A stretch of DNA of 64,000 nucleotides from a virus (Duplodnaviria > Heunggongvirae > Uroviricota > Caudoviricetes), in the IMG/VR virus record IMGVR_UViG_3300026966_000012; one strand, written 5' to 3'. A program made the translations under genes and the position numbers. Of this stretch, positions 5,343 through 41,046 are shown in pieces (the stretch's first letter is position 1; each line of letters opens with the position of its first letter). The notes under the pieces were generated by a model. It had not been told where the DNA came from, searched no databases, and saw nothing but the letters and a program-made list of their open reading frames with translations.

Positions 5343-5651
5343 ATGGAGACAGAGAACGTCGCGATCGTCTCGCTGGAGGCGGCTGAAGTTGCCCGACGCG
5401 AGTTGGACATCCTGATTGAACAGACTGGCGGCCCGAACGCCGGGATCGATGAGTCGTGCTCGCCGATGGCCCTCGCGCGCCAACGCATCGAGCGCCTGGA
5501 AGGCGAAGGGATAGACCCGTTCACCGTGGCGACTGTGCTGCAAGTCATGTACGGCGTCGCGGAGGAGCGTGGTGTCGAGATCAGTAGCGCCGACCCGTTG
5601 CAGGACGACGTCTTCCGGGCACGAAGCGAGTTCGAGTCGGATCTCGAGTAG
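5343..5651 (+). CDS. hypothetical protein
   Basis: Internal ATG (METENVAIV) of track ORF 5211..5651, directly after the upstream stop. Confidence 0.45.
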   Translation: METENVAIVSLEAAEVARRELDILIEQTGGPNAGIDESCSPMALARQRIERLEGEGIDPFTVATVLQVMYGVAEERGVEISSADPLQDDVFRARSEFESDLE

Positions 5652-6059
5652 TCTCGACCCTGCTGCGGTTTGCATCGTTCCTGGTGGTAGTGAGCGGTTC
5701 GATTCCGTGACGATGCCTGGCCCCCGAGCCCTCAGACGATACGTTGATAGGTTCGCGGGGCCTATGCTCACGCGGCATCCGTTAGTGATGCCGTTCCGTT
5801 CGGGTGGGATAGCACGCGTCGGGCTGTCTCGGCAAGGGCAACCACGTCAGTCGAGATCAGAGGCTCGTGCAAACCCGTTGCCCGGGGCATTTGTCCCCGG
5901 GCGCCCTTTGGTACCGCCTCGAGCGAGAGCTCTTGTTCTCTGACATCGCGTATCCGCGCCCGAGCGCGCAAACCCGGTGTGATCATGCTACGATCCTGTT
6001 CTATCAGCAATATTATCTGACAAAGATATTATTATATCAGCTCCAGCCTAAGGTAAAGT

Positions 6060-16610: not shown

Positions 16611-17133
16611 GTCGTCCAGCCGAACGGTGGGTGTCGTTCCCGTGGGCGCTCGAGCTGACGCCGTGTCGTACGGTGACGCTCTGACCCGTGCAGTCGGTCG
16701 CGTCGTACGGCGGGCCCCCTGAACGGCGCCCCACTAAAGTCAAATTTTAGATATATCCTCGTTTCGACCTACTTTTCAGGGCACACCGCTGTGAGAGGTG
16801 CGTATCGACAATAATCTATCATAACCCCTCCCGAATAGCTCCCCATAACCCTGTCTTCAACGATGTCGCCCGTCCACGTCCCCATTTGTCGGGCACACCG
16901 ATTTTCAGGCACTCGCCTCTGGTGGTAGTGAGTTTCGGTGACATGAACCATATCGATTGACCTGTATGTACCCATATTTCGAATCATAACGAAAATTATA
17001 TATCCGCTTACTGACTATCTTAGAATGTCCCTCCCGTGGAACGGAGTGACGCATTGCATGAAGCGAACGCACGACCGGCCTGGAGACCCGGTCACGTACC
17101 CGAGTAGCACCGCACTCACTACCACCAGGGACG

Positions 17134-20246: not shown

Positions 20247-20633
20247 ATGTCAGGTATGAGTTTCGAAAAGTACCAGGGGTCGAGCCGTGGTCGGAAAACG
20301 ATCAGTCACCCATGTGTTAAAATCTGGTCGTCCGGTAAGATCGCCTTCAACGACGTGGCTGTCGAGGAGTGGCTGGATAATGCAGAGTACGTCGGGATCT
20401 GGACGCACAGTGAGATTCCACAGGTGGCCATCGCTCCGTCGACGAAGTCAAACTCGGGTCTCCCACACGTCTATGCGCTCCATACGCAGGGGACGTACAA
20501 CGGCAAGCTCCTCCAGGTACGCAAGTTGCTCCGCGATTTCGGATGTTCCCGACCGGACGAATCTCTCGAGCTCGACGCCTGGTACGACGACGATCGGGAG
20601 ATGATGGTTGTCGACCTGGACCCACTGACGTGA
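20247..20633 (+). CDS. hypothetical protein
   Basis: 128 aa. Confidence 0.5.
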   Translation: MSGMSFEKYQGSSRGRKTISHPCVKIWSSGKIAFNDVAVEEWLDNAEYVGIWTHSEIPQVAIAPSTKSNSGLPHVYALHTQGTYNGKLLQVRKLLRDFGCSRPDESLELDAWYDDDREMMVVDLDPLT

Positions 20634-20685
20634 CCCCCACCCCCGGGACACCGATATAGCCTGTCCGAGCGGTGAGCCCTATTGG

Positions 20686-20717
20686 TACGGCGAGTCGGTT
20701 CGATTCCGACCAGGGCC
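20686..20717 (+). other. tRNA 3'-half-like fragment (T-arm GTCGG-TTCGATT-CCGAC plus acceptor 3' strand CAGGGCC); possible att-site remnant
   Basis: Canonical T-loop GGTTCGATTCC; no matching 5' acceptor strand or anticodon arm upstream. Confidence 0.4.
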
Positions 20718-20751
20718 GTGTGCGCCCACACGCTGGCGCCCAAGAAGTAGC

Positions 20752-21180
20752 GTGGAACGGAACCATGACGCAGATAACCCAGGAGGTGGCGCAACGATGG
20801 AGGTAATCGTTACGCCGTACGGCAACGAACCGAAGTTAGTGACGAAGGCGGAAAGTCTGGTGCGCGACGGCTACGCTGCTGATGTGTGGGTACTATGCGA
20901 ACGCATCCTCGCCTCGAATGGGGCTGATATGCTGGTCCAGTTGCGAAACGAGGATGGGGACAACTGGCTCATCGAGGAGAAGGGGCTCGGGACAGCTGTG
21001 CTCCAGCAGGACTGCATCGCGATCGAGGCCGAACACCAGACGGAGAACGCGGTCCTCGTTGGTCGATACGCGACACCTGGCGGTCAGGGGACGGAGTCCG
21101 GGCTCCACCTCCGTGATACGCTCGGAGACATATGGCTTCCGAAAAGCCAGATCACCTCGTTTGAACTGAAGTCTGACTGA
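20752..21180 (+). CDS. hypothetical protein (start may be the ATG at 20797, MEVIV)
   Basis: Track ORF. Confidence 0.45.
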   Translation: MERNHDADNPGGGATMEVIVTPYGNEPKLVTKAESLVRDGYAADVWVLCERILASNGADMLVQLRNEDGDNWLIEEKGLGTAVLQQDCIAIEAEHQTENAVLVGRYATPGGQGTESGLHLRDTLGDIWLPKSQITSFELKSD

Positions 21181-22012: not shown

Positions 22013-22696
22013 CGCTGCTGGTGGTAGTGGTGACAGGTCGATATTAAATATTCTTATACTTGCCACTGTATCGGGATGAGTGATCGGCGTAGATCAGGGT
22101 TAAAACTGTCTGATGGGCTTATCTGTGGGACAACCCGAAAGTTATAATGAGTTGGGGAGCAGAGTGTATGATACCGGATATGGATAGCCACATCGGGGTG
22201 GTAGACACGATGTTGATCACCCCAGACCCACACGAGCTGCACACGCACTACGAACTACTGGAGCTTGGGCGCGAGGAGTTCCACGGGACAGTCACTGTCG
22301 TTGGACTGGCATCGTAGCCTGACGAGACGATCTTCGAGATATGACCCCCACACTCGGGACGCGGTTTACTGGTGTCCACCGTGAGTCCGATGTGTTGGTT
22401 CCATTGGTCAAAAACTCGGCCGTATGGCCCGTTAGGGCGGGATTATCGTACTATGTAGGGTCTGTATCTAAATACTTGCACGCCGTAGTGTATGCTACGG
22501 GAAAGTGCCCTGTCCTCTCAACAGTGCAGAGCACAGACCCGTTCAACTGGGTAGCTGCGAGCGACCCCCTTTCGGAACGTGAGCGATCCACCTGGGGAGG
22601 TGTCGCCTCACGTCGCTCTCAGTTTTACGTACTCACGCCCGTGAGACTGGTGTCTCTCATTCCGTTCGATTCGGGACACGGGAATCACCCATCTGG

Positions 22697-23119
22697 GTGA
22701 GGTTTCAAACGATGGAAGAACTACCGCCGACAGCTGAGCCGGCGCACGAACAGGAGTATAATGTGACGATGCCGCGCGAGATGGTCGTCTACTACGACAC
22801 GGTGCTGGACCAGACGATCACGGTCCGTGACGTCGACGACTCGGACGACGGGTTCGTCACGTACCACCCTGACGGTGACCCGGAGGGGATGCAGAGCGAT
22901 CCCATGAATCGCTTCTTGGCGTGGTTGGCCGCTGGCCGCTTCGTCAAGCTGGGCGACCGAATGGAAGCACATGGGCTCGACGCGAGTGACAAGGAGGTAG
23001 CCCGAGTCTTCGCCGAGGCGTACGGATACGACCCGCGCGAGTTCCGACCGATGGAGCTCGCTCGGTTCCTCCTATCCGAGCGGCTCGACGAAACGTTGAT
23101 CATGGAGGAAGATGGATAG
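22697..23119 (+). CDS. hypothetical protein
   Basis: 140 aa. Confidence 0.45.
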   Translation: MRFQTMEELPPTAEPAHEQEYNVTMPREMVVYYDTVLDQTITVRDVDDSDDGFVTYHPDGDPEGMQSDPMNRFLAWLAAGRFVKLGDRMEAHGLDASDKEVARVFAEAYGYDPREFRPMELARFLLSERLDETLIMEEDG

Positions 23120-24192: not shown

Positions 24193-25836
24193 ATGCCCAC
24201 AGCGAACCTCCTGAACACGAAGGCCGGCAAGTTCGGCCAGGTCCCCGGCGCCGCCTCTCGCGCTCGCATGTCCGAGCTCGTCGAGGGGAAAGGTGCGATC
24301 GACCTTCGCGACTACCAGTCCCACTTCGAGCAAGCGTTCGACGATCCCGTCGAAGCACAGATCAAGTTCGAGAACTGGTGTTGCCGAGTCAAAGACACGC
24401 TGATCTCGTCGTCGGGTATCGATCTCCGACCATACCAGAAGGAGTTCTCCGATCGCATCATCAAGTCCGTCGTTCGGAATGATGGACAGACGTTCTTCGC
24501 CGAATGGGCTCGTCAGAGTGGAAAAACGGAGACACTGGCCTCGACGGCCTACGCGGTGTCTGTCCTGTTTGCCCCGATCCGCATCGGTATTTTCGGTCCG
24601 AAGCAGCGACAGGCGCAGATCATGTGGGACCGCGTGAAAGAGCGGTACAACCAGGAGGTTCTCGACGGACTTGGGCTCGAGATCGAGAAGTATGGGGGAA
24701 ACACGTTCAAGCTCTCCTCTGGGTCCGTGGTTCAGGCGATCACGGCTGGCTCGGGGAACATTGAGGGGGAGACATTCGACCTGATCCTCATCGACGAGAC
24801 GCAGAAGATCAGCCGCCGGATGCTCCTTGCGGAGATCTGGCCGATGGGGGCGGAGACCAACGCGACGAAGTGTTGTATCGGAACGCCGCACTTCCAGGAC
24901 TGCTGGTTCCGAGAGCAGCTGGAGCGGCTGAAGGGCACGCCGTTCTGTATGATATACGACTGGCGGACGCCGGCGAAATACTCGAAGAACTACCGGAAAT
25001 CGATCGCCCGCCAGCTGGAGCAGATGAGTCCGGAGTCCGAGGAGTTCCGCACACAGTACGAGCTCGAGTGGATTCTGGAGTCGGGGATGTTCATCACGAT
25101 AGAGGACTGGCGCCGGATGAACCCGCCGCCGCTCATGACCCCGGTCGTGACGAAAGAGGAGCTGTACGACAGCGAGATCAACTCGAAGTGGCAAGTGAGA
25201 GCGGGCGTCGACCTCGCGAAAGAACACGACTCGACTGTTCTGACGGTCACTGGCAAATACTTCGGGTCGTGGGAGCCATACTGGGATGGCTTCTCGGAGG
25301 AGACGATCGTACTCCTCGACGTGGTCGAATTGGAGGGCCTCGAGTACCCGGACCAGATAGACATCATTCAGGAGGAACTGGACCGATGGCACGCCGACGT
25401 GCTTGGAGTGGACTCGACTGGTGTCGGCGACCCGGTGACAGATATCCTGAAGCGAGAGCTGAACCAGCACGTCGAGGGCATCAAGTTCACGTCATCGAGC
25501 AAGCACGACCTGTACAAACACGTCGAGCGGAAGGTGAAGGTCGAGGAGGAATGGGACTACTGCAACTTCGTGATCCCAAAGAAGGTCCGCTCCTACCCAC
25601 ACCTGGAGGTGTCGATGCGGAAGATGGAAGAACAGTGGTTGGAGCTGACGAAAGAGTACAAAGGGTCACGCATGAGTGTTGAGGGACCGGATAGCGGGCA
25701 CGACGACTACCCGGACAGTGCAGCCCTCTCCATGTGGGTGCAGGACGCCGACTACAACATCGACGAGAAGCACATGACCTCGCCAACCCCAGTCCTGGGG
25801 ACGATGAACGGCATCGGGGCGAAGATCGGGTACTGA
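24193..25836 (+). CDS. terminase large subunit
   Basis: Walker A ARQSGKTE, Walker B LILIDETQ, C-terminal nuclease region GVDSTGVGD; 547 aa. Confidence 0.9.
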   Translation: MPTANLLNTKAGKFGQVPGAASRARMSELVEGKGAIDLRDYQSHFEQAFDDPVEAQIKFENWCCRVKDTLISSSGIDLRPYQKEFSDRIIKSVVRNDGQTFFAEWARQSGKTETLASTAYAVSVLFAPIRIGIFGPKQRQAQIMWDRVKERYNQEVLDGLGLEIEKYGGNTFKLSSGSVVQAITAGSGNIEGETFDLILIDETQKISRRMLLAEIWPMGAETNATKCCIGTPHFQDCWFREQLERLKGTPFCMIYDWRTPAKYSKNYRKSIARQLEQMSPESEEFRTQYELEWILESGMFITIEDWRRMNPPPLMTPVVTKEELYDSEINSKWQVRAGVDLAKEHDSTVLTVTGKYFGSWEPYWDGFSEETIVLLDVVELEGLEYPDQIDIIQEELDRWHADVLGVDSTGVGDPVTDILKRELNQHVEGIKFTSSSKHDLYKHVERKVKVEEEWDYCNFVIPKKVRSYPHLEVSMRKMEEQWLELTKEYKGSRMSVEGPDSGHDDYPDSAALSMWVQDADYNIDEKHMTSPTPVLGTMNGIGAKIGY

Positions 25837-31066: not shown

Positions 31067-31562
31067 AAAGGGTAGAGAGTCTGAAAGGGATTAGGTAGGA
31101 AAGTTTTCATTCCGACGTGTGCCGACCCTGTTTCCAGACCGTAACCCCCCACCTCTCGGGCCTGTAAACCACTCTCCACGCAATCCGGCCGAAAAGGCCC
31201 TCTAAACCGCACTCTCAGAGCTTCTATCCTTTGAATATGCCATGTCTGAGCGACATTCTGGGTATCCAGACTGGTTTCCCCTCACCAACCACTCATGTCC
31301 GATACCGCAGGATAACCACCCTGACACTCGTACCACCAGGAACGAAGGCCCGTATTCCTTCAAGATATACAGAGACAAGCAGAGTGGAATCGATAGACTG
31401 CACTGACCTCCACGCATATACGAAAAACGACAGAACAGAAATCTTTAATATCACATCCCACATATTTCTATTCACCCACAGCTACCCAGTGGGACGTGCT
31501 CCCCGAGTGCGTAGAACGGAGATATACATGAAGGAATGGCGACAGAAGTGGAGGAATAGTCT

Positions 31563-32444
31563 ATGAACGAACGTGCGCAGTCAGCGGCTGGGCCGATTGC
31601 GGTCGTGGTCCTGGTCGGTGCCGTTATCCTTGTCGGAGTTGGTCTCGCGTCGATGCAGACAGTCGACGAGGGACACGTCAAAGTGGTCACCTACAAAGGC
31701 AACGCCGAAGGGACGTTCTACCCCGGCAACTGGTATTTCATCAACCCGATCACGCAGGGGACCGTGTCGGTCGACGTTCGGCCACAGGTGATGCAGATGG
31801 TTGCTGCACAGGGAGAAGGCGAGCGTTCCGAGTTCGACGACTCGATCAAAGTAGTGACTAACGACAACATGCGAGTGCCAGTTGACGTTGCGATCACCTA
31901 CCAGGTCGACGACCCGGTCACCTTCTATGAGGAGTGGAAGACTCACGACCAGGCCCGACAGCGGGCGATCCGACCTGGGTCCCGGGCCGCCATCTACACC
32001 GTTGGTGGTGGGATGTCCGGTACCGAGATCACCAACGACGAGGCACGAGAGCGGATGCGCCTCGCTGTTGCTGAAGAACTGGAAGACCGGTTCGACGGGA
32101 CGGGGCTCGCTCTGATCGCTGTCGACATCCGTGGCGTGTACCCACCCGACTCGTTCCTGGATGCGGCCGAGAACGCCCAGGCCGAGCGTCAGGAGATCAT
32201 CGCTGAACAGCACCGACAGGAAGTTGCCAGAGAGCACGCAGAAACGCTCCGTATCGAAGCCGAAGGTGAGCGAGACGCCCGCCTGATCCGCGCCGAAGCG
32301 TACGAGAACGACGCTGTCCTCGAAGCGATGTACATCGACGAGCTCAGCGAGTCCAACGTGATCTACGTACCGGTCGGTAACGATGGCGTGCCACTGTTCA
32401 TGGACGTCAGCGACGACGAGAACAGTACAAGCGGGAGTCCGTAA
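31563..32444 (+). CDS. SPFH/band-7 (prohibitin/stomatin-like) membrane protein
   Basis: N-terminal TM segment; SPFH domain with a coiled-coil EA-rich tail. Confidence 0.85.
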   Translation: MNERAQSAAGPIAVVVLVGAVILVGVGLASMQTVDEGHVKVVTYKGNAEGTFYPGNWYFINPITQGTVSVDVRPQVMQMVAAQGEGERSEFDDSIKVVTNDNMRVPVDVAITYQVDDPVTFYEEWKTHDQARQRAIRPGSRAAIYTVGGGMSGTEITNDEARERMRLAVAEELEDRFDGTGLALIAVDIRGVYPPDSFLDAAENAQAERQEIIAEQHRQEVAREHAETLRIEAEGERDARLIRAEAYENDAVLEAMYIDELSESNVIYVPVGNDGVPLFMDVSDDENSTSGSP

Positions 32445-32447
32445 GTC

Positions 32448-32627
32448 ATGGCTCTCGCGGTCGTGGGCCTCCTGCTCGTGTGGGTGTCTCTGTGCATCGT
32501 TACGTTCGTCGCCTATCGGATGTACATGCGCCACCGCGACCGGAAGCACGAGGAGCGTATCAAACAGCTGGAGACGCAGCAAACGCTGTTCGAGAACGAC
32601 GAGCTGTTCGACGACGAGGACCTGTAA
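32448..32627 (+). CDS. small membrane protein partner of the SPFH protein (59 aa)
   Basis: MALAVVGLLLVWVSLCIVTFVAY, then a charged tail. Confidence 0.4.
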   Translation: MALAVVGLLLVWVSLCIVTFVAYRMYMRHRDRKHEERIKQLETQQTLFENDELFDDEDL

Positions 32628-32628
32628 G

Positions 32629-32724
32629 ATGATCCCGCCCGAATCGTACTGGATGGCGGCGGGAGCGGTACTGGGCGTCGCGGGGACGCTCCTGGGACTG
32701 TACCTCGACGGGTACATCCCGTAG
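32629..32724 (+). CDS. tiny membrane peptide (31 aa)
   Basis: MIPPESYWMAAGAVLGVAGTLLGLYLDGYIP. Confidence 0.3.
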   Translation: MIPPESYWMAAGAVLGVAGTLLGLYLDGYIP

Positions 32725-32731
32725 CGGCGAC

Positions 32732-32776
32732 TGTCGGCCCGGCTGGGTCATTCGGGGTTCGAATCCCCGACCGACA
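32732..32776 (+). other. tRNA-like minihelix (acceptor-like stem TGTCGG/CCGACA plus T-arm CGGGG-TTCGAAT-CCCCG); candidate attP core or tRNA-like element
   Basis: Canonical T-loop GGTTCGAATCC; no D arm or anticodon arm. Confidence 0.4.
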
Positions 32777-32788
32777 CTGGGGTGACCA

Positions 32789-33601
32789 ATGCAAATCAAA
32801 CAAATCGCAGGCACGCCGCACCCCGAGCGACTGGTGAGTCTGTGTGCACGAAACGACTATCGAGCTGATGGCGTCATCGACCACTCATTCGCCGAGATCA
32901 TGGCGGGTGTGAAAGTGGACGACGACGTCGTCGACGATCTCCGTGAGGAGTGGTTTGACGACGACGATGTTGCACGGGACGACCCGTGGGATGCGATGCC
33001 AGCCGAGTTCAGAACAGAAGCAGAACAACGATCGCTCCTCAAGCATACCATGAACGAGGGCCACTGGGGCGTGTTCGAGCACCCACAGGCGACGCTCGCG
33101 CTCGAGGGTATCACCCGGACATCGATGGCGCAGATCACGCGCCACCGACACTTCACGTTCGACATCATGTCCCTCCGATACGTCACACTCGACTTCGACT
33201 CGGTCGAGGAGATGAAGGAGCGATTCGCCGAGCCTGATGAGATCACGGCCGAGGAGGTCGTGAGTCGGAACGGCGTCGAGACCATCGACATGGACCCCGA
33301 CGAGCGCGAGGAGATCTGGTGGGAGACGATCGCCCACACCGCCCACACCTACAACACACTCGTGGACGCTGGCGTCCCTCAGGAAGAAGCGCGCAAAGTC
33401 CTCGGTATGGGAACGAAGGTCAACATCATGATGTCTGGGAACGCCCGGGCCTGGATGCACCTTCTGAACATCAGAGGGAAAGCGAACGTCCAGGGAGAGG
33501 CCCGAAACATCGCTGACGGCGTGATGGGCGAGATGAAGGAGTGGATGCCGTACACGTTCGAGCGGTACGACGACATGCTCCCACTGAGACTGAACCCATG
33601 A
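32789..33601 (+). CDS. thyX: FAD-dependent thymidylate synthase ThyX
   Basis: ThyX signature RHRHFTFDIMSLRY (RHRxxSxxxxSxRY-like). Confidence 0.85.
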   Translation: MQIKQIAGTPHPERLVSLCARNDYRADGVIDHSFAEIMAGVKVDDDVVDDLREEWFDDDDVARDDPWDAMPAEFRTEAEQRSLLKHTMNEGHWGVFEHPQATLALEGITRTSMAQITRHRHFTFDIMSLRYVTLDFDSVEEMKERFAEPDEITAEEVVSRNGVETIDMDPDEREEIWWETIAHTAHTYNTLVDAGVPQEEARKVLGMGTKVNIMMSGNARAWMHLLNIRGKANVQGEARNIADGVMGEMKEWMPYTFERYDDMLPLRLNP

Positions 33602-35914: not shown

Positions 35915-36877
35915 ATGCCCACCCAGTTAGCAGTTGAAGCGGACAGCAAGAACCACTGGGCGCTCCTGTGCCTCGCGCTCTACCAGGAGGAGCACGCGGC
36001 GGGAGCTACCACACGTGAGTTGTACGAAACGGCCGATGGCGTCTTCGACAACGCACAGCGCCTCTCCGGCGCGTTCCACTCCCTGTACAACAAGCGCCGC
36101 CTCCTCGAGCGTGAAGACGACCTGAGTCATCCGAGGGCGTACCGCTACTATCTGAACGAAAGCGGATGGTCGATGCTCAAGCACATCGGAAGCCCGACGC
36201 GAACGCCCGGCGGTGATCGTGTTCGGAGTATCGACATCCCTGACAAACCACCGGCTGTCAAAGCGCCAAGTGAGTACAAGCAGGTCGAGATCACCGACGA
36301 TGCTGACGAAGCAGGTCAGGACCCTGGCCCGTTCGAGTCCGCCAAGTCACGGCGCCGGTACTTTGCCCAACAGGACGAGAGTGAGTATCTCGACTGGCTG
36401 GAGAACAAGTGGGCGCCGAACCACCGCCTGACTGACGAGCAGTCTGGGATGACGGGGGAGGAGGTCGACGAGATGATCGAGCTGAACCGTCGAGCGGAGG
36501 CGAACGGCGAGGTTCGGTTCGAAGGCCACGATGAGATGATGGAGCAGGTGTTCGGCGATGATGACGACGAGGAGGAGTCGGTGGAGACGATCGATCTCTC
36601 ACCCGACTGGGACTGGCTTGGGACGCAACTCGTCAAGCTCGGATTCGTCGGTCTCGCACGGGATGCGTTCGAGGCGAAGCTCTCGCCGCGCATCGTCTAC
36701 AACGACGTTCTCGACACGATTCAGGAACACGCTGGTGATCCAGATGCCGACCTGGACCTGGAGACCGGCGCAGGTGGTGCGACCATGGTTGAGGCACCGG
36801 CCGACCCGGAGCAGGTGTCCCGGTTCAAGCAGGCACTCGGCATCGACAACACGGACTCCGACACAGCCACCGCCTAA
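35915..36877 (+). CDS. protein with N-terminal winged-helix (MarR/PadR-like) fold
   Basis: N-terminal 90 aa HTH-like; TATA aaaactatatactc upstream. Confidence 0.5.
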   Translation: MPTQLAVEADSKNHWALLCLALYQEEHAAGATTRELYETADGVFDNAQRLSGAFHSLYNKRRLLEREDDLSHPRAYRYYLNESGWSMLKHIGSPTRTPGGDRVRSIDIPDKPPAVKAPSEYKQVEITDDADEAGQDPGPFESAKSRRRYFAQQDESEYLDWLENKWAPNHRLTDEQSGMTGEEVDEMIELNRRAEANGEVRFEGHDEMMEQVFGDDDDEEESVETIDLSPDWDWLGTQLVKLGFVGLARDAFEAKLSPRIVYNDVLDTIQEHAGDPDADLDLETGAGGATMVEAPADPEQVSRFKQALGIDNTDSDTATA

Positions 36878-36986
36878 AAAACACCTACCACCAGCAACGC
36901 CCGTTTGGAGCACGGCGGTTCAACTCCGCCGGCGGGCCTGCGCTCCCCACCAGCGCGTTAGAAAACCGTGGGACGGAGTACAAGAA

Positions 36987-37238
36987 ATGACCGCAGATAC
37001 CCAGTCTACCAGCACCGGGTCTACCGAGAACCGGGAGCTGATGAGAGTGGACGTGCTCGCTGAGGACGGGCACCTCCACGAGTTTCGCAATGTCGTCGAT
37101 GCGCACGAGCGTGGCGACGGCGTCCAAGTAACGTATCTCGACGACGGTGAGGAAATCGTCGAAACCGTGGGCGAGATGGGTGGGCGCATCGTGTGCGCAC
37201 TCATACCGGCCAGGTACGGGGGACAGAGCGATGATTGA
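36987..37238 (+). CDS. hypothetical protein
   Basis: Internal ATG (index 143) of track ORF 36558..37238; GGACGGAG box before the ATG. Confidence 0.45.
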   Translation: MTADTQSTSTGSTENRELMRVDVLAEDGHLHEFRNVVDAHERGDGVQVTYLDDGEEIVETVGEMGGRIVCALIPARYGGQSDD

Positions 37239-40915: not shown

Positions 40916-41046
40916 AAGAAAGAGTTCTATTGGCACACAGTCTTGCGATTAGAACAGGTAAGAAAACAGAAACATATTTTACCTCCTACTGCATACATAG
41001 ATTACCCACCGGGCACAGGGCCTGGTGGCGTGGAACGGAGTTACTG

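What the first reader, a model, noticed from the sequence alone, without database searches (positions are those of the whole stretch)
20686..20717. tRNA 3'-half fragments (T-arm GGTTCGAWTCC with acceptor strand) at 20686..20717 and 32732..32776, and a weaker T-loop box near 5695
Two elements carry a canonical tRNA T-arm (5-bp stem, TTCGATT or TTCGAAT loop) followed by a 7-nt acceptor-like strand. Neither has D or anticodon arms, so they are not functional tRNAs. Integrases commonly target tRNA 3' ends, and attP sites carry exactly this portion. The 32732..32776 element even folds as an acceptor-plus-T-arm minihelix. Both sit at boundaries: between the small-ORF region and the regulator/packaging block, and between the SPFH and thyX blocks. 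They may be attP cores for an integrase encoded outside the window, scars of past tRNA-targeted module insertions, or tRNA-like structures.
Basis: partly seen in the sequence, partly recalled or inferred. Interest (0 to 1): 0.6.

Follow-up and report, generated by a model that had tools for sequence, protein, structure and literature searches.

The report
tRNA-like punctuation elements in a halovirus
Five short tRNA-like elements (acceptor stem plus T-arm, no anticodon arm) sit between genes of a haloarchaeal tailed virus and have the same build as the 't-elements' that haloarchaeal cells use as cutting signals for tRNA-processing enzymes, so they most likely mark where viral transcripts are cut rather than where the virus integrates.

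Summary
GGTTCGAWTCC occurs three times, all on the + strand (0.14 expected). None of the sites is a 3' half. Each has both acceptor strands, an 8-16 nt linker with an invariant TGG, and a canonical T-arm. Two more copies exist, so there are five in all: 5672-5717, 20675-20718, 22637-22684, 32732-32777 and 36899-36938. All are intergenic, on the coding strand, and start 8-42 nt after an upstream stop codon. They are not tRNA genes (ARAGORN and Rfam find nothing).

Orthologues in related viruses, including a 149-kb plasmid-prophage of Halobaculum halophilum, keep both helices through many compensatory changes.

A covariance model trained only on viral copies finds, end to end, the two cellular t-elements that lie directly upstream of 5S rRNA in a Natrinema rRNA operon. 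Published work shows that Haloferax t-elements are cut by RNase P and tRNase Z.

Best reading: these are viral t-elements that punctuate polycistronic transcripts and set the 5' ends of downstream mRNAs. One of them precedes a conserved non-coding RNA.

The attP reading is not supported. There are five internal, syntenic copies, and the relative is a circular ParA/ParB replicon with no annotated integrase. Cleavage itself is inferred, not shown. This is a new member of a known kind.

The parts
5672..5717 (+). t-element E3: GCATCGT | TCCTGGTGGTAGTG | AGCGG TTCGATT CCGTG | ACGATGC | C. It starts 20 nt after the stop codon at 5651.
   Evidence: Sequence; descriptor; CM 29-36 bits. An orthologue not used for training, L176 13673-13722, scores 31.9 bits and has compensatory changes. 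Plasmid orthologue is L130 31924-31981.
5718..5909 (+). Conserved structured non-coding stretch directly after E3. It ends in the hairpin GCCCGGGG..CCCCGGGC plus CCCTTT (5880-5909). It is a candidate ncRNA whose 5' end would be made by cleavage at the 3' end of E3.
   Evidence: Alignments with the plasmid and the IMG/VR relative include a 37-nt identical block (5790-5826) and compensatory hairpin changes. No Rfam family matches.
20675..20718 (+). t-element E1: AGCCCTA | TTGGTACGGCGA | GTCGG TTCGATT CCGAC | CAGGGCC | G. It has a 5-bp acceptor core with mismatches at 1:72 and 7:66. It starts 42 nt after the stop codon at 20633.
   Evidence: Orthologues are L001 4961-5003 and L124 about 5352-5393 (acceptor TCCCG/CGGGA, two compensatory pairs). 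The linker matches the Haloferax t-element primer at 11 of 13 positions.
20722..20762 (+). Leader downstream of E1: hairpin GCGCC..GGCGC (20722-20739), then the SD-like motif GTGGAACGGAA (20752-20762). A 13-codon uORF starts at 20765 and the gene ATG is at 20797.
   Evidence: The same layout follows E4 and L176 5966-6009.
22637..22684 (+). t-element E5: GCCCGTG | AGACTGGTGTCTCTCA | TTCCG TTCGATT CGGGA | CACGGGA | A. The linker forms a mini D-like hairpin, AGAC-TGGT-GTCT. It lies 27 nt upstream of the ATG at 22712.
   Evidence: Orthologues are L001 6968-7015, L124 7810-7858 and L133 835-881. Compensatory changes occur in the acceptor stem, the T stem and the mini D stem (AGAC/GTCT versus AGGC/GCCT).
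22686..22699 (+). Conserved hairpin CACCC-NNNN-GGGTG directly after E5, overlapping the SD-like GGGTGAGG.
31555..32786 (+). SPFH/Band-7 cassette (SPFH 31563-32444, small membrane ORFs 32448-32627 and 32629-32724, then E2). It is inserted between the thyX leader and the thyX ATG and is absent from relative L001.
32732..32777 (+). t-element E2: TGTCGGC | CCGGCTGGGTCATT | CGGGG TTCGAAT CCCCG | ACCGACA | C. It starts 8 nt after the stop at 32724 and ends 11 nt before the thyX ATG at 32789.
   Evidence: There are analogous elements upstream of thyX in L125 11716-11760 and after the SPFH gene of HGTV-1.
36899..36938 (+). t-element E4: GCCCGTT | TGGAGCAC | GGCGG TTCAACT CCGCC | GGCGGGC | C. It starts 21 nt after the stop at 36877. 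It is followed by hairpin 36940-36956, motif GTGGGACGGAG at 36968-36978, and an ATG at 36987.
   Evidence: The orthologue L124 21514-21555 (= L131 12273-12314) has compensatory changes.

Best explanation
The window is part of a tailed virus of a haloarchaeon (Halobaculum-like host). It carries five 't-elements', which are miniature tRNA-like RNA structures within the viral transcripts. Each consists of a 5-7 bp acceptor-like stem, a short linker with a conserved TGG (the counterpart of D-loop G18-G19 that contacts the T-loop), and a canonical T-arm. There is no anticodon arm.

Shown: the architecture, the copy number, the strand and intergenic placement, conservation with compensatory changes, and structural equivalence with the cellular t-elements that precede 5S rRNA.

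Inferred by analogy with published Haloferax work: host RNase P cuts at the 5' side of each element and host tRNase Z cuts after the discriminator base. Each element would then act as punctuation. It would give the upstream message a 3' end a few nucleotides past its stop codon. It would also give the downstream RNA a defined 5' end. For thyX that leaves an 11-nt leader. After E5, E1 and E4 it leaves leaders of about 27-80 nt containing a hairpin and a Shine-Dalgarno-like motif. After E3 it leaves a conserved non-coding RNA. This would let genes or cassettes such as SPFH be placed within an operon without their own promoter or translational coupling.
For: 1. Enrichment and strand bias: 5 on + and 0 on -, against about 0.1 expected. 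The CM score gap is 25-48 bits against 14 or less.

2. These are not tRNAs. They are not copies of the 31 tRNAs of the related plasmid.

3. Conservation at syntenic sites in L001/L176 (IMG/VR contig), the Halobaculum halophilum plasmid NZ_CP058532.1, L133 and L125.

4. Covariation. On the Infernal alignment, 89% of cells pair against 33-49% when the partner strand is slid. There are 53 double-sided changes against 15 in shuffles, and no shuffle reaches the observed value (0 of 500). Within orthologue groups alone, 18 of 48 pair positions change on both sides and stay paired. The E3 orthologue in L176 was not in any training set and scores 31.9 bits.

5. Link to cellular t-elements. The Natrinema rRNA operon (L172) has two elements that each end 1 nt before a 5S rRNA gene. 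They have the same layout, including the 5-bp core, the 1:72 and 7:66 mismatches and the TGG linker. The model trained only on viral copies finds both end to end, at 23.2 and 15.8 bits. The E1 linker matches the Haloferax t-element primer at 11 of 13 positions.

6. Function of t-elements. [quoted passage not shown]

7. Context. All elements start 8-42 nt after a stop codon. E2 and E5 leave no room for a promoter before the next ATG. After E1, E4 and L176 5966 comes the same hairpin plus GRACGGAG leader that elsewhere follows TATA-like promoters. E3 precedes a conserved structured RNA.

8. A similar unannotated element follows the homologous SPFH gene in the cultured halovirus HGTV-1.
Against: There are no transcript or cleavage data, so processing is inferred purely by analogy.

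Pair 1:72 is unpaired in 9 of 14 copies and pair 7:66 in 7 of 14. This could affect RNase P or tRNase Z site choice, although the cellular Natrinema elements share the feature.

Folding energies are not better than shuffles.

Presence is patchy. The plasmid has SPFH-thyX without an element, L001 has neither, and L126 lacks E5.

The paralogue alignment was selected by a descriptor and a CM that reward pairing, so its statistics are partly circular. The orthologue comparisons are the cleaner evidence.

Only three or four relatives exist, and some registrations (L124 E1 with a bulged T, L130 E3) were made by hand.
Confidence: 0.6

Rival explanations
1. The elements are tRNA mimics with a role other than transcript punctuation. 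Candidate roles are: structured 3' ends that protect upstream mRNAs from 3'-5' decay; substrates of the CCA-adding enzyme or of T-loop modification enzymes; decoys for host tRNA-binding defence or toxin proteins; or modules of Y-RNA-like RNAs.
For: The structural evidence is the same. All elements sit just downstream of stop codons, where a 3'-end stabiliser would be. The viral lineage invests heavily in tRNA biology: the relative carries 31 tRNAs. HGTV-1 encodes a TROVE/Ro-like protein, RtcB and a tRNA nucleotidyltransferase.
Against: The closest structural match is the cellular t-element, whose documented role is as a processing signal. The elements have no anticodon loop for anticodon nucleases to target. 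Discriminator bases vary (C, G, A), and identity pairs such as G3-U70 are not conserved. No Y-RNA family is hit in Rfam. No TROVE protein is annotated in the related plasmid.
Confidence: 0.2
2. They are decayed relics of tRNA genes (internally deleted pseudo-tRNAs) with no present function.
For: The T-arm and acceptor parts look like tRNA. The 3' part of E1 is 20 of 25 identical to a viral tRNA-Arg, and 22 nt match actinophage tRNA-Cys at chance level (E = 0.3). The lineage carries a large tRNA cluster.
Against: Five independent internal deletions would have to give the same architecture with an invariant TGG. Both helices are maintained by compensatory substitutions between orthologues while flanks and linkers drift. 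All copies lie on the coding strand, just after stop codons, and far from the tRNA cluster. Cellular t-elements share the same reduced design.
Confidence: 0.07
3. They are attP cores or scars of integrase-mediated insertion into tRNA genes.
For: E2 lies exactly at the 3' edge of a 1.23-kb cassette that is absent from relative L001. Integrases do often target tRNA 3' ends (general knowledge). TerL of this virus also occurs on a 320-kb contig, which could be an integrated copy. This was not examined.
Against: There are five copies in 64 kb, all internal. Four are conserved at syntenic positions in a circular ParA/ParB plasmid-prophage that has no annotated integrase or recombinase. Each has the 5' acceptor strand as well, closing a helix that covaries. 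The same SPFH cassette occurs without the element in the plasmid.
Confidence: 0.03

Closest known systems
Haloarchaeal t-element (tRNA-like structure upstream of 5S rRNA; Hoelzle et al. 2008 and 2012, as cited in PMC4326828, PMC4946936, PMC3296008)
   Same: Same build: a 5-7 bp acceptor-like stem (core pairs 2-6, with 1:72 and 7:66 often mismatched), a roughly 10-16 nt linker with TGG, a canonical T-arm, no anticodon arm, and a single discriminator base followed directly by the downstream RNA. A model trained only on viral copies finds the Natrinema examples. The host group is the same (Halobacteria).
   Different: The viral elements are multi-copy and lie between protein-coding genes, whereas the cellular ones sit in an rRNA operon. 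Only E3 precedes a structured RNA. Some viral copies carry a mini D-like hairpin (E5), and the plasmid E3 orthologue carries an extra hairpin. Cleavage has not been tested. From memory, Hoelzle 2012 also reported other genomic tRNA-like elements in H. volcanii; I could not read that paper.
Plant mitochondrial t-elements and the mitochondrial tRNA-punctuation model (PMC1920247; title and abstract seen)
   Same: tRNA-like structures or tRNAs between coding regions are cut by RNase P and RNase Z to form mRNA 5' and 3' ends.
   Different: Different domain of life and different enzymes (protein-only RNase P in plants). There is no sequence relation. This is an analogy only.
MALAT1 mascRNA / MEN-beta tRNA-like elements (Rfam RF01684; PMC8457004)
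   Same: A tRNA-like module inside a longer transcript is cut by RNase P (making the upstream 3' end) and by RNase Z. The T-arm of E2 gives a weak hit to this family (16.5 bits against a gathering score of 42.5).
   Different: mascRNA is eukaryotic and a full cloverleaf-like fold. The Rfam hit covers only the 17-nt T-arm and is below threshold. The viral elements are not members.
tRNA genes interspersed with ORFs in large haloviruses (e.g. HGTV-1)
   Same: tRNAs abut small ORFs on the same strand, so tRNA processing already punctuates such transcripts.
   Different: The elements here cannot decode, because they lack an anticodon arm. They lie outside the tRNA cluster region.

Membership tests
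Haloarchaeal t-element (tRNA-like processing element) | Acceptor-like stem closed by 5' and 3' strands, stacked on a T-arm with a tRNA-type T-loop (TTCRANY) | tested here: met
   All five window copies show this. T stem cells are 98.6% paired and acceptor pairs 2-6 are paired in 69 of 70 cells.
Haloarchaeal t-element (tRNA-like processing element) | No anticodon arm. Instead a short linker with a GG (D-loop-like) motif, as in the cellular examples | tested here: met
   Linkers are 8-16 nt with an invariant TGG. The Natrinema elements have 10-nt linkers, TTGGTATTGC and GTGGTCTGAC. The Haloferax primer has ATTGGTATGGCAA.
Haloarchaeal t-element (tRNA-like processing element) | Recognised by one common sequence-and-structure model together with bona fide cellular t-elements | tested here: met
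   Model R1, built from viral copies only, finds both Natrinema t-elements over their full length at 23.2 and 15.8 bits (E = 1.4e-5 and 1.7e-3 in 820 nt). Caveat: parts of real tRNAs also reach 17-26 bits.
Haloarchaeal t-element (tRNA-like processing element) | Lies directly upstream of the RNA whose 5' end it defines (5S rRNA in cells) | tested here: inconclusive
   E3 is followed at once by a conserved structured non-coding stretch. E2 and E5 lie 11 and 27 nt before start codons. No 5' ends have been mapped.
Haloarchaeal t-element (tRNA-like processing element) | Cleaved by tRNase Z after the discriminator and by RNase P at position 1 | not testable with these tools
   This needs in-vitro cleavage assays or end mapping. 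It is established for the Haloferax element only (PMC4326828).
tRNA gene (including intron-containing archaeal tRNA) | Cloverleaf with D arm and anticodon arm | tested here: not met
   ARAGORN in default and intron modes finds 0 genes. Rfam at gathering threshold finds nothing. The elements are only 40-48 nt from strand to strand.
attP / tRNA-3'-end integration site | An integrase on the element, and the site at the junction of the integrated form | tested here: not met
   The complete related replicon (149 kb, circular, ParA/ParB) has no annotated integrase or recombinase. There are five internal copies, conserved in synteny. The window's own complete genome was not available.
attP / tRNA-3'-end integration site | Sequence identity with the 3' end of a host tRNA gene | tested here: inconclusive
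Against the relative's 31 tRNAs, the best match is 16-20 of 25. Against the phage collection there are only chance-level hits.
Y-RNA-like (YrlA) tRNA-mimic module | Ro60/TROVE partner gene and a match to the RNA family | tested here: not met
   Rfam gives no hit even at E <= 10 around three of the elements. No TROVE protein is annotated in the related plasmid.

The most novel reading that the evidence does not exclude
t-elements may be a general modular device of haloarchaeal viruses. On this view, a portable 'cut here' signal travels with accessory gene cassettes (SPFH plus element in this virus and in HGTV-1). It would let new genes and small RNAs be slotted into existing operons by borrowing the host's tRNA-processing enzymes. 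The excised ~45-nt mini-tRNAs, or the conserved RNA after E3, might have a further role of their own, for example as decoys for host tRNA-directed defence.
Probability: 0.15. Interest if true: 0.75.

Novelty: new member of a known kind. Interest (0 to 1): 0.5.

Why it matters
RNA processing in archaeal viruses is almost unstudied. If these elements are cut as the cellular t-elements are, a virus is using host RNase P and tRNase Z to resolve polycistronic transcripts and to mature a non-coding RNA. That would be the archaeal-virus counterpart of mitochondrial tRNA punctuation.

The idea is directly testable, for two reasons. A close relative is a plasmid-prophage in a cultured strain (Halobaculum halophilum Gai3-2). 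A similar unannotated element also exists in the cultured virus HGTV-1.

There is a practical annotation point as well. tRNA-like hits that lack D and anticodon arms in haloarchaeal mobile elements should not be read as att sites by default.

Tried and rejected
1. ARAGORN with relaxed thresholds (-ps70/80, long introns) and in mitochondrial mode gave hundreds of meaningless calls and was uninformative.

2. Rfam at E <= 10 around the elements gave only sub-threshold T-arm hits (mascRNA and plastid UTR families).

3. MFE z-scores are not significant in this 60% GC background, so stability alone cannot be used as evidence.

4. The window has no nucleotide match in the phage collection. BLAST of the five elements against phages gave only chance-level tRNA hits.

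This was my design error. As a result, the host-tRNA test of the attP idea could not be run.

6. A viral-contig scan with the hairpin pattern that follows E5 found only the one relative already known. The metagenome scan with TerL added only the same contig plus a 4.6-kb fragment.

7. MAFFT alone puts the 5' strands out of register.

8. A weak C/D-box snoRNA hit (sR23, 15 bits against a gathering score of 45) downstream of E3 was rejected.

9. The motif GTGGRACGGAR is not more frequent than chance overall. Only its placement in leaders is notable.

Full report
**What is in the sequence.** The motif GGTTCGAWTCC occurs at 5696, 20697 and 32756, always on the + strand. Shuffles give 0.14 on average, and none of 100 reaches three. 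Reading the flanks shows that none of the three is a tRNA 3' half. In each, the 7-nt strand after the T-arm pairs with a 7-nt strand that lies 8-16 nt upstream of the T-arm.

A descriptor search was run with these requirements: at least 5 contiguous acceptor pairs, a linker of 5-22 nt containing TGG, a T stem of at least 4 bp, and the loop TTCRANN. It finds five hits on the + strand and none on the - strand. About 0.1 per strand is expected, and 0 of 200 Markov simulations reach five. The five elements are:
- E3, 5672-5717
- E1, 20675-20718
- E5, 22637-22684
- E2, 32732-32777
- E4, 36899-36938

ARAGORN (default and intron modes) and Rfam at gathering thresholds find no tRNA or other family anywhere in the window. 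Folding energies are not better than shuffles, so the case does not rest on stability.

**What the window is.** It has 60% GC and an acidic proteome. It encodes a large terminase, a class II ribonucleotide reductase, ThyX and an SPFH protein. It has no nucleotide match among deposited phages.

The large terminase is 84% identical to that of plasmid unnamed3 of Halobaculum (Halorarum) halophilum Gai3-2 (NZ_CP058532.1). That replicon is 148,857 bp and circular. It carries ParA/ParB, tail, baseplate and tape-measure genes, and has no annotated integrase. The window is collinear with plasmid coordinates of about 76-137 kb. The plasmid carries 31 genuine tRNA genes at 46-47 and 53-59 kb, outside the part that matches the window.

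Other relatives are an IMG/VR contig that is the same as an ENA contig (L001, L002, L136, L176; about 78-90% nucleotide identity) and short metagenomic contigs (L125, L126, L132, L133).

**Conservation and covariation.**
- E1, E5 and E3 are present at the syntenic sites of the IMG/VR relative.
- E1, E5, E4 and an E3-like element are present in the plasmid.
- E5 is present in L133.

The T-loop and the TGG are invariant. Linkers and flanks drift, and both helices change by paired substitutions. For example, the E5 acceptor goes from GCCCGTG/CACGGGC to ACTCGCG/CGCGAGC, and its pair 52:62 goes C-G, then U-G, then U-A. The E1 acceptor goes from GCCCT/AGGGC to TCCCG/CGGGA. The mini D-like stem of E5 goes from AGAC/GTCT to AGGC/GCCT.

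Counting only within the four orthologue groups, 18 of 48 pair positions change on both sides and remain paired. On Infernal's alignment of 14 viral and cellular copies:
- 89% of cells pair, against 33-49% when the 3' partner is slid.
- There are 53 double-sided changes, against 15 in shuffles (0 of 500 reach the observed value).
- Pairs 2-6 of the acceptor stem are essentially always formed. Pairs 1:72 and 7:66 are formed in only 5 and 7 of 14 copies.

The paralogue set was selected by methods that reward pairing, so these global numbers are partly circular. The orthologue comparisons are the cleaner evidence. So is the L176 copy of E3, which was never in a training set and scores 31.9 bits.

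With either covariance model, the five window copies score 25-48 bits and the next best hit 13-14 bits. There are therefore exactly five copies of this type in the window.

**Link to a known family.** Maier et al. (PMC4326828) describe the Haloferax 't-element'. It is a tRNA-like structure directly upstream of 5S rRNA. tRNase Z cuts it to make the 5S 5' end, and it is also a substrate of RNase P. When placed on either side of a crRNA, it releases that RNA in vivo (see also PMC4946936, and PMC3296008).

Their primer itele1 (ACCGATATTGGTATGGCAACC) resembles E1. Its stretch ATTGGTATGGCAA matches ATTGGTACGGCGA in E1 at 11 of 13 positions. BLAST of that primer against plasmids found a Natrinema megaplasmid. 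There, Rfam places the end of 23S rRNA and two 5S genes, and each 5S gene is preceded, with a 1-nt gap, by an element:
- ACCGATA TTGGTATTGC AACGG TTCGATC CCGTT GATCGGC A
- ACCGATC GTGGTCTGAC GGCGG TTCGATT CCGCT GATCGGC A

This is the same design as the viral elements, including the 5-bp core, the mismatched 1:72 and 7:66 positions, and the TGG linker. The covariance model built from viral copies alone finds both over their full length, at 23.2 and 15.8 bits. I therefore file the viral elements in the t-element class on structural grounds. The enzymatic feature could not be tested.

**Context and likely mechanism.** Every element starts 8-42 nt after the stop codon of the upstream + strand gene (stops at 5651, 20633, 32724 and 36877). 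E5 instead follows about 320 nt of non-coding sequence.
- E2 ends 11 nt before the thyX ATG.
- E5 ends 27 nt before the ATG at 22712, with a conserved hairpin CACCC-N4-GGGTG in between. Neither gap has room for an archaeal promoter.
- After E1 and E4 comes a GC hairpin. About 30 nt further on lies the motif GTGGRACGGAR, which contains GGAG at Shine-Dalgarno distance from an ATG. A sixth element in the relative (L176 5966-6009, which would lie just upstream of the window) is followed at similar spacing by the shorter core GAACGGAG.
- The same leader motif follows TATA-like promoters at 17036, 31511 and 41030, preceded by a GC hairpin at 41030 at least. This fits the idea that cleavage at an element produces the same kind of 5' leader that a promoter produces elsewhere.
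- E3 is followed directly by about 190 nt of conserved, covarying non-coding sequence. It ends in a hairpin plus CCCTTT, before the next promoter-like region. That mirrors the cellular arrangement of a t-element followed by 5S rRNA.

The inferred mechanism is that host RNase P cuts at position 1 and host tRNase Z cuts after the discriminator. This would split polycistronic transcripts and define the ends of the neighbouring RNAs. All of this is inference.

**The boundary observation.** The SPFH cassette plus E2 (about 31555-32786) lies between the thyX leader and the thyX ATG. The states upstream of thyX in relatives differ:
- L001 has the same leader joined directly to thyX.
- The plasmid has SPFH, then a small ORF overlapping the thyX start (ATGA), and no element.
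- L125 has a different gene followed by another t-element upstream of thyX.
- In the cultured halovirus HGTV-1, the only non-tRNA hit of model R2 (22.8 bits, E = 0.003) lies between the homologous SPFH gene (32% identity, E = 4e-29) and the next ORF. It is not annotated and is not a tRNA by ARAGORN.

So an element is present where a downstream gene is neither translationally coupled nor given its own promoter. That fits punctuation. It also suggests that elements can travel with cassettes.

**Why attP and pseudo-tRNA readings are unlikely.**
- Against attP: there are five internal copies conserved in synteny within a circular ParA/ParB replicon that has no annotated integrase. Both acceptor strands are present, and the stems covary.
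- Against relics: five independent decays would not converge on one design with an invariant TGG that is shared with cellular t-elements. The helices are also under purifying, pair-preserving selection.
- The elements are not copies of the relative's 31 tRNAs (16-20 of 25 identical in the 3' part, much of it T-loop).

I could not compare the elements with host chromosomal tRNAs, because my single genome-collection scan was wasted on an under-specified pattern. TerL also occurs on a 320-kb contig that I could not retrieve, so integration of this particular virus is not excluded. Even if it integrates, that would not explain five internal structured copies.

**Novelty.** Full-text searches for tRNA-like or t-elements in archaeal viruses returned only the Haloferax tool papers and unrelated RNase P literature. 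I found no report of t-elements in archaeal viruses, but the library is incomplete and I could not read Hoelzle 2008 or 2012. The kind of element is known, both as cellular t-elements and, by analogy, as plant mitochondrial t-elements and mascRNA. The viral, multi-copy, inter-ORF setting and the pairing with a conserved ncRNA are new instances of it.

**Verdict.** The finding is real and more extensive than reported. The attP interpretation is largely wrong, and the 'tRNA-like structure' interpretation is right. My confidence that these are t-element-class structured RNAs is about 0.85. My confidence that they act as RNase P / tRNase Z processing signals is about 0.6.

Noticed in passing
window 5718-5909 (also L176 13723-13897+ and L130 31982-~32190): There is a conserved, apparently structured non-coding RNA directly after t-element E3. 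It has a 37-nt block identical in three genomes (5790-5826), hairpins with compensatory changes, and a terminator-like hairpin plus CCCTTT at 5880-5909. No Rfam family matches.
   Followed up: partly
window 17036, 20752, 31511, 36968, 41030 (+ strand): A leader motif GTGGRACGGAG, usually preceded by a GC hairpin, lies 2-11 nt upstream of an ATG. It follows either a TATA-like promoter or a t-element. At 20765 and 31528 the ATG opens a 12-13 codon uORF that overlaps the start of the main gene. The uORF after E1 (MTQITQ...) and the ORF after E4 (MTADTQ...) begin similarly. The motif count overall is not above chance.
   Followed up: partly
window 31555-32786 vs L001 18547/18548 and L124 17472-18500: The SPFH/Band-7 cassette with two small membrane ORFs is an indel between close relatives. 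It is inserted between the thyX leader and the thyX ATG. Imperfect repeats (AGTGGAGG and CTGGGGTG) lie at the two edges.
   Followed up: partly
L175 11621-11664 (HGTV-1 NC_021328.1 111621-111664): An unannotated t-element-like structure (GGCGGGG..GAAGG CTCGATT CCTTC ACCCGCC A) lies between the SPFH gene gp140 and gp139 of the cultured halovirus HGTV-1. Its T-loop starts with C rather than T, and its linker has AGG rather than TGG.
   Followed up: partly
L176 5966-6009: A sixth t-element (35.4 bits) is present in the IMG/VR relative, about 7.7 kb upstream of E3. That corresponds to sequence just before the start of the window. It is followed by the same GAACGGAG leader and an ATG.
   Followed up: partly
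L125 3777-3898: At the E5 position of a more distant relative, the T-arm and 3' strand (GGCGG TTCGACT CCGCC .. GCGGGC) are present. The best-matching 5' strand (GCCCGT) lies about 115 nt upstream, with no TGG nearby. This could be an element with a large insertion or a different structure. It remains unexplained.
   Followed up: no
L001 8890-10004; L126 5519-8191; L133 2187-4934: The large terminase of several relatives carries an intein (Intein_splicing plus LAGLIDADG). It is absent from the window's terminase (24193-25836) and from the Halobaculum plasmid copy.
   Followed up: no
L129 46225-47197 and L130 3010-9106 (NZ_CP058532.1): The related 149-kb 'plasmid' of Halobaculum halophilum is a plasmid-prophage of a tailed virus with ParA/ParB and 31 tRNA genes. 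It is listed only as an unnamed, non-mobilizable plasmid. PLSDB's 'cmlA5' resistance call on a 41-codon ORF (L130 40906-41031) looks spurious.
   Followed up: partly
L172 401-442 and 594-635 (Natrinema sp. SYSU A 869 plasmid NZ_CP082248.1): This 881-kb megaplasmid carries an rRNA operon with two tandem 5S rRNA genes. Each is preceded by its own t-element.
   Followed up: yes
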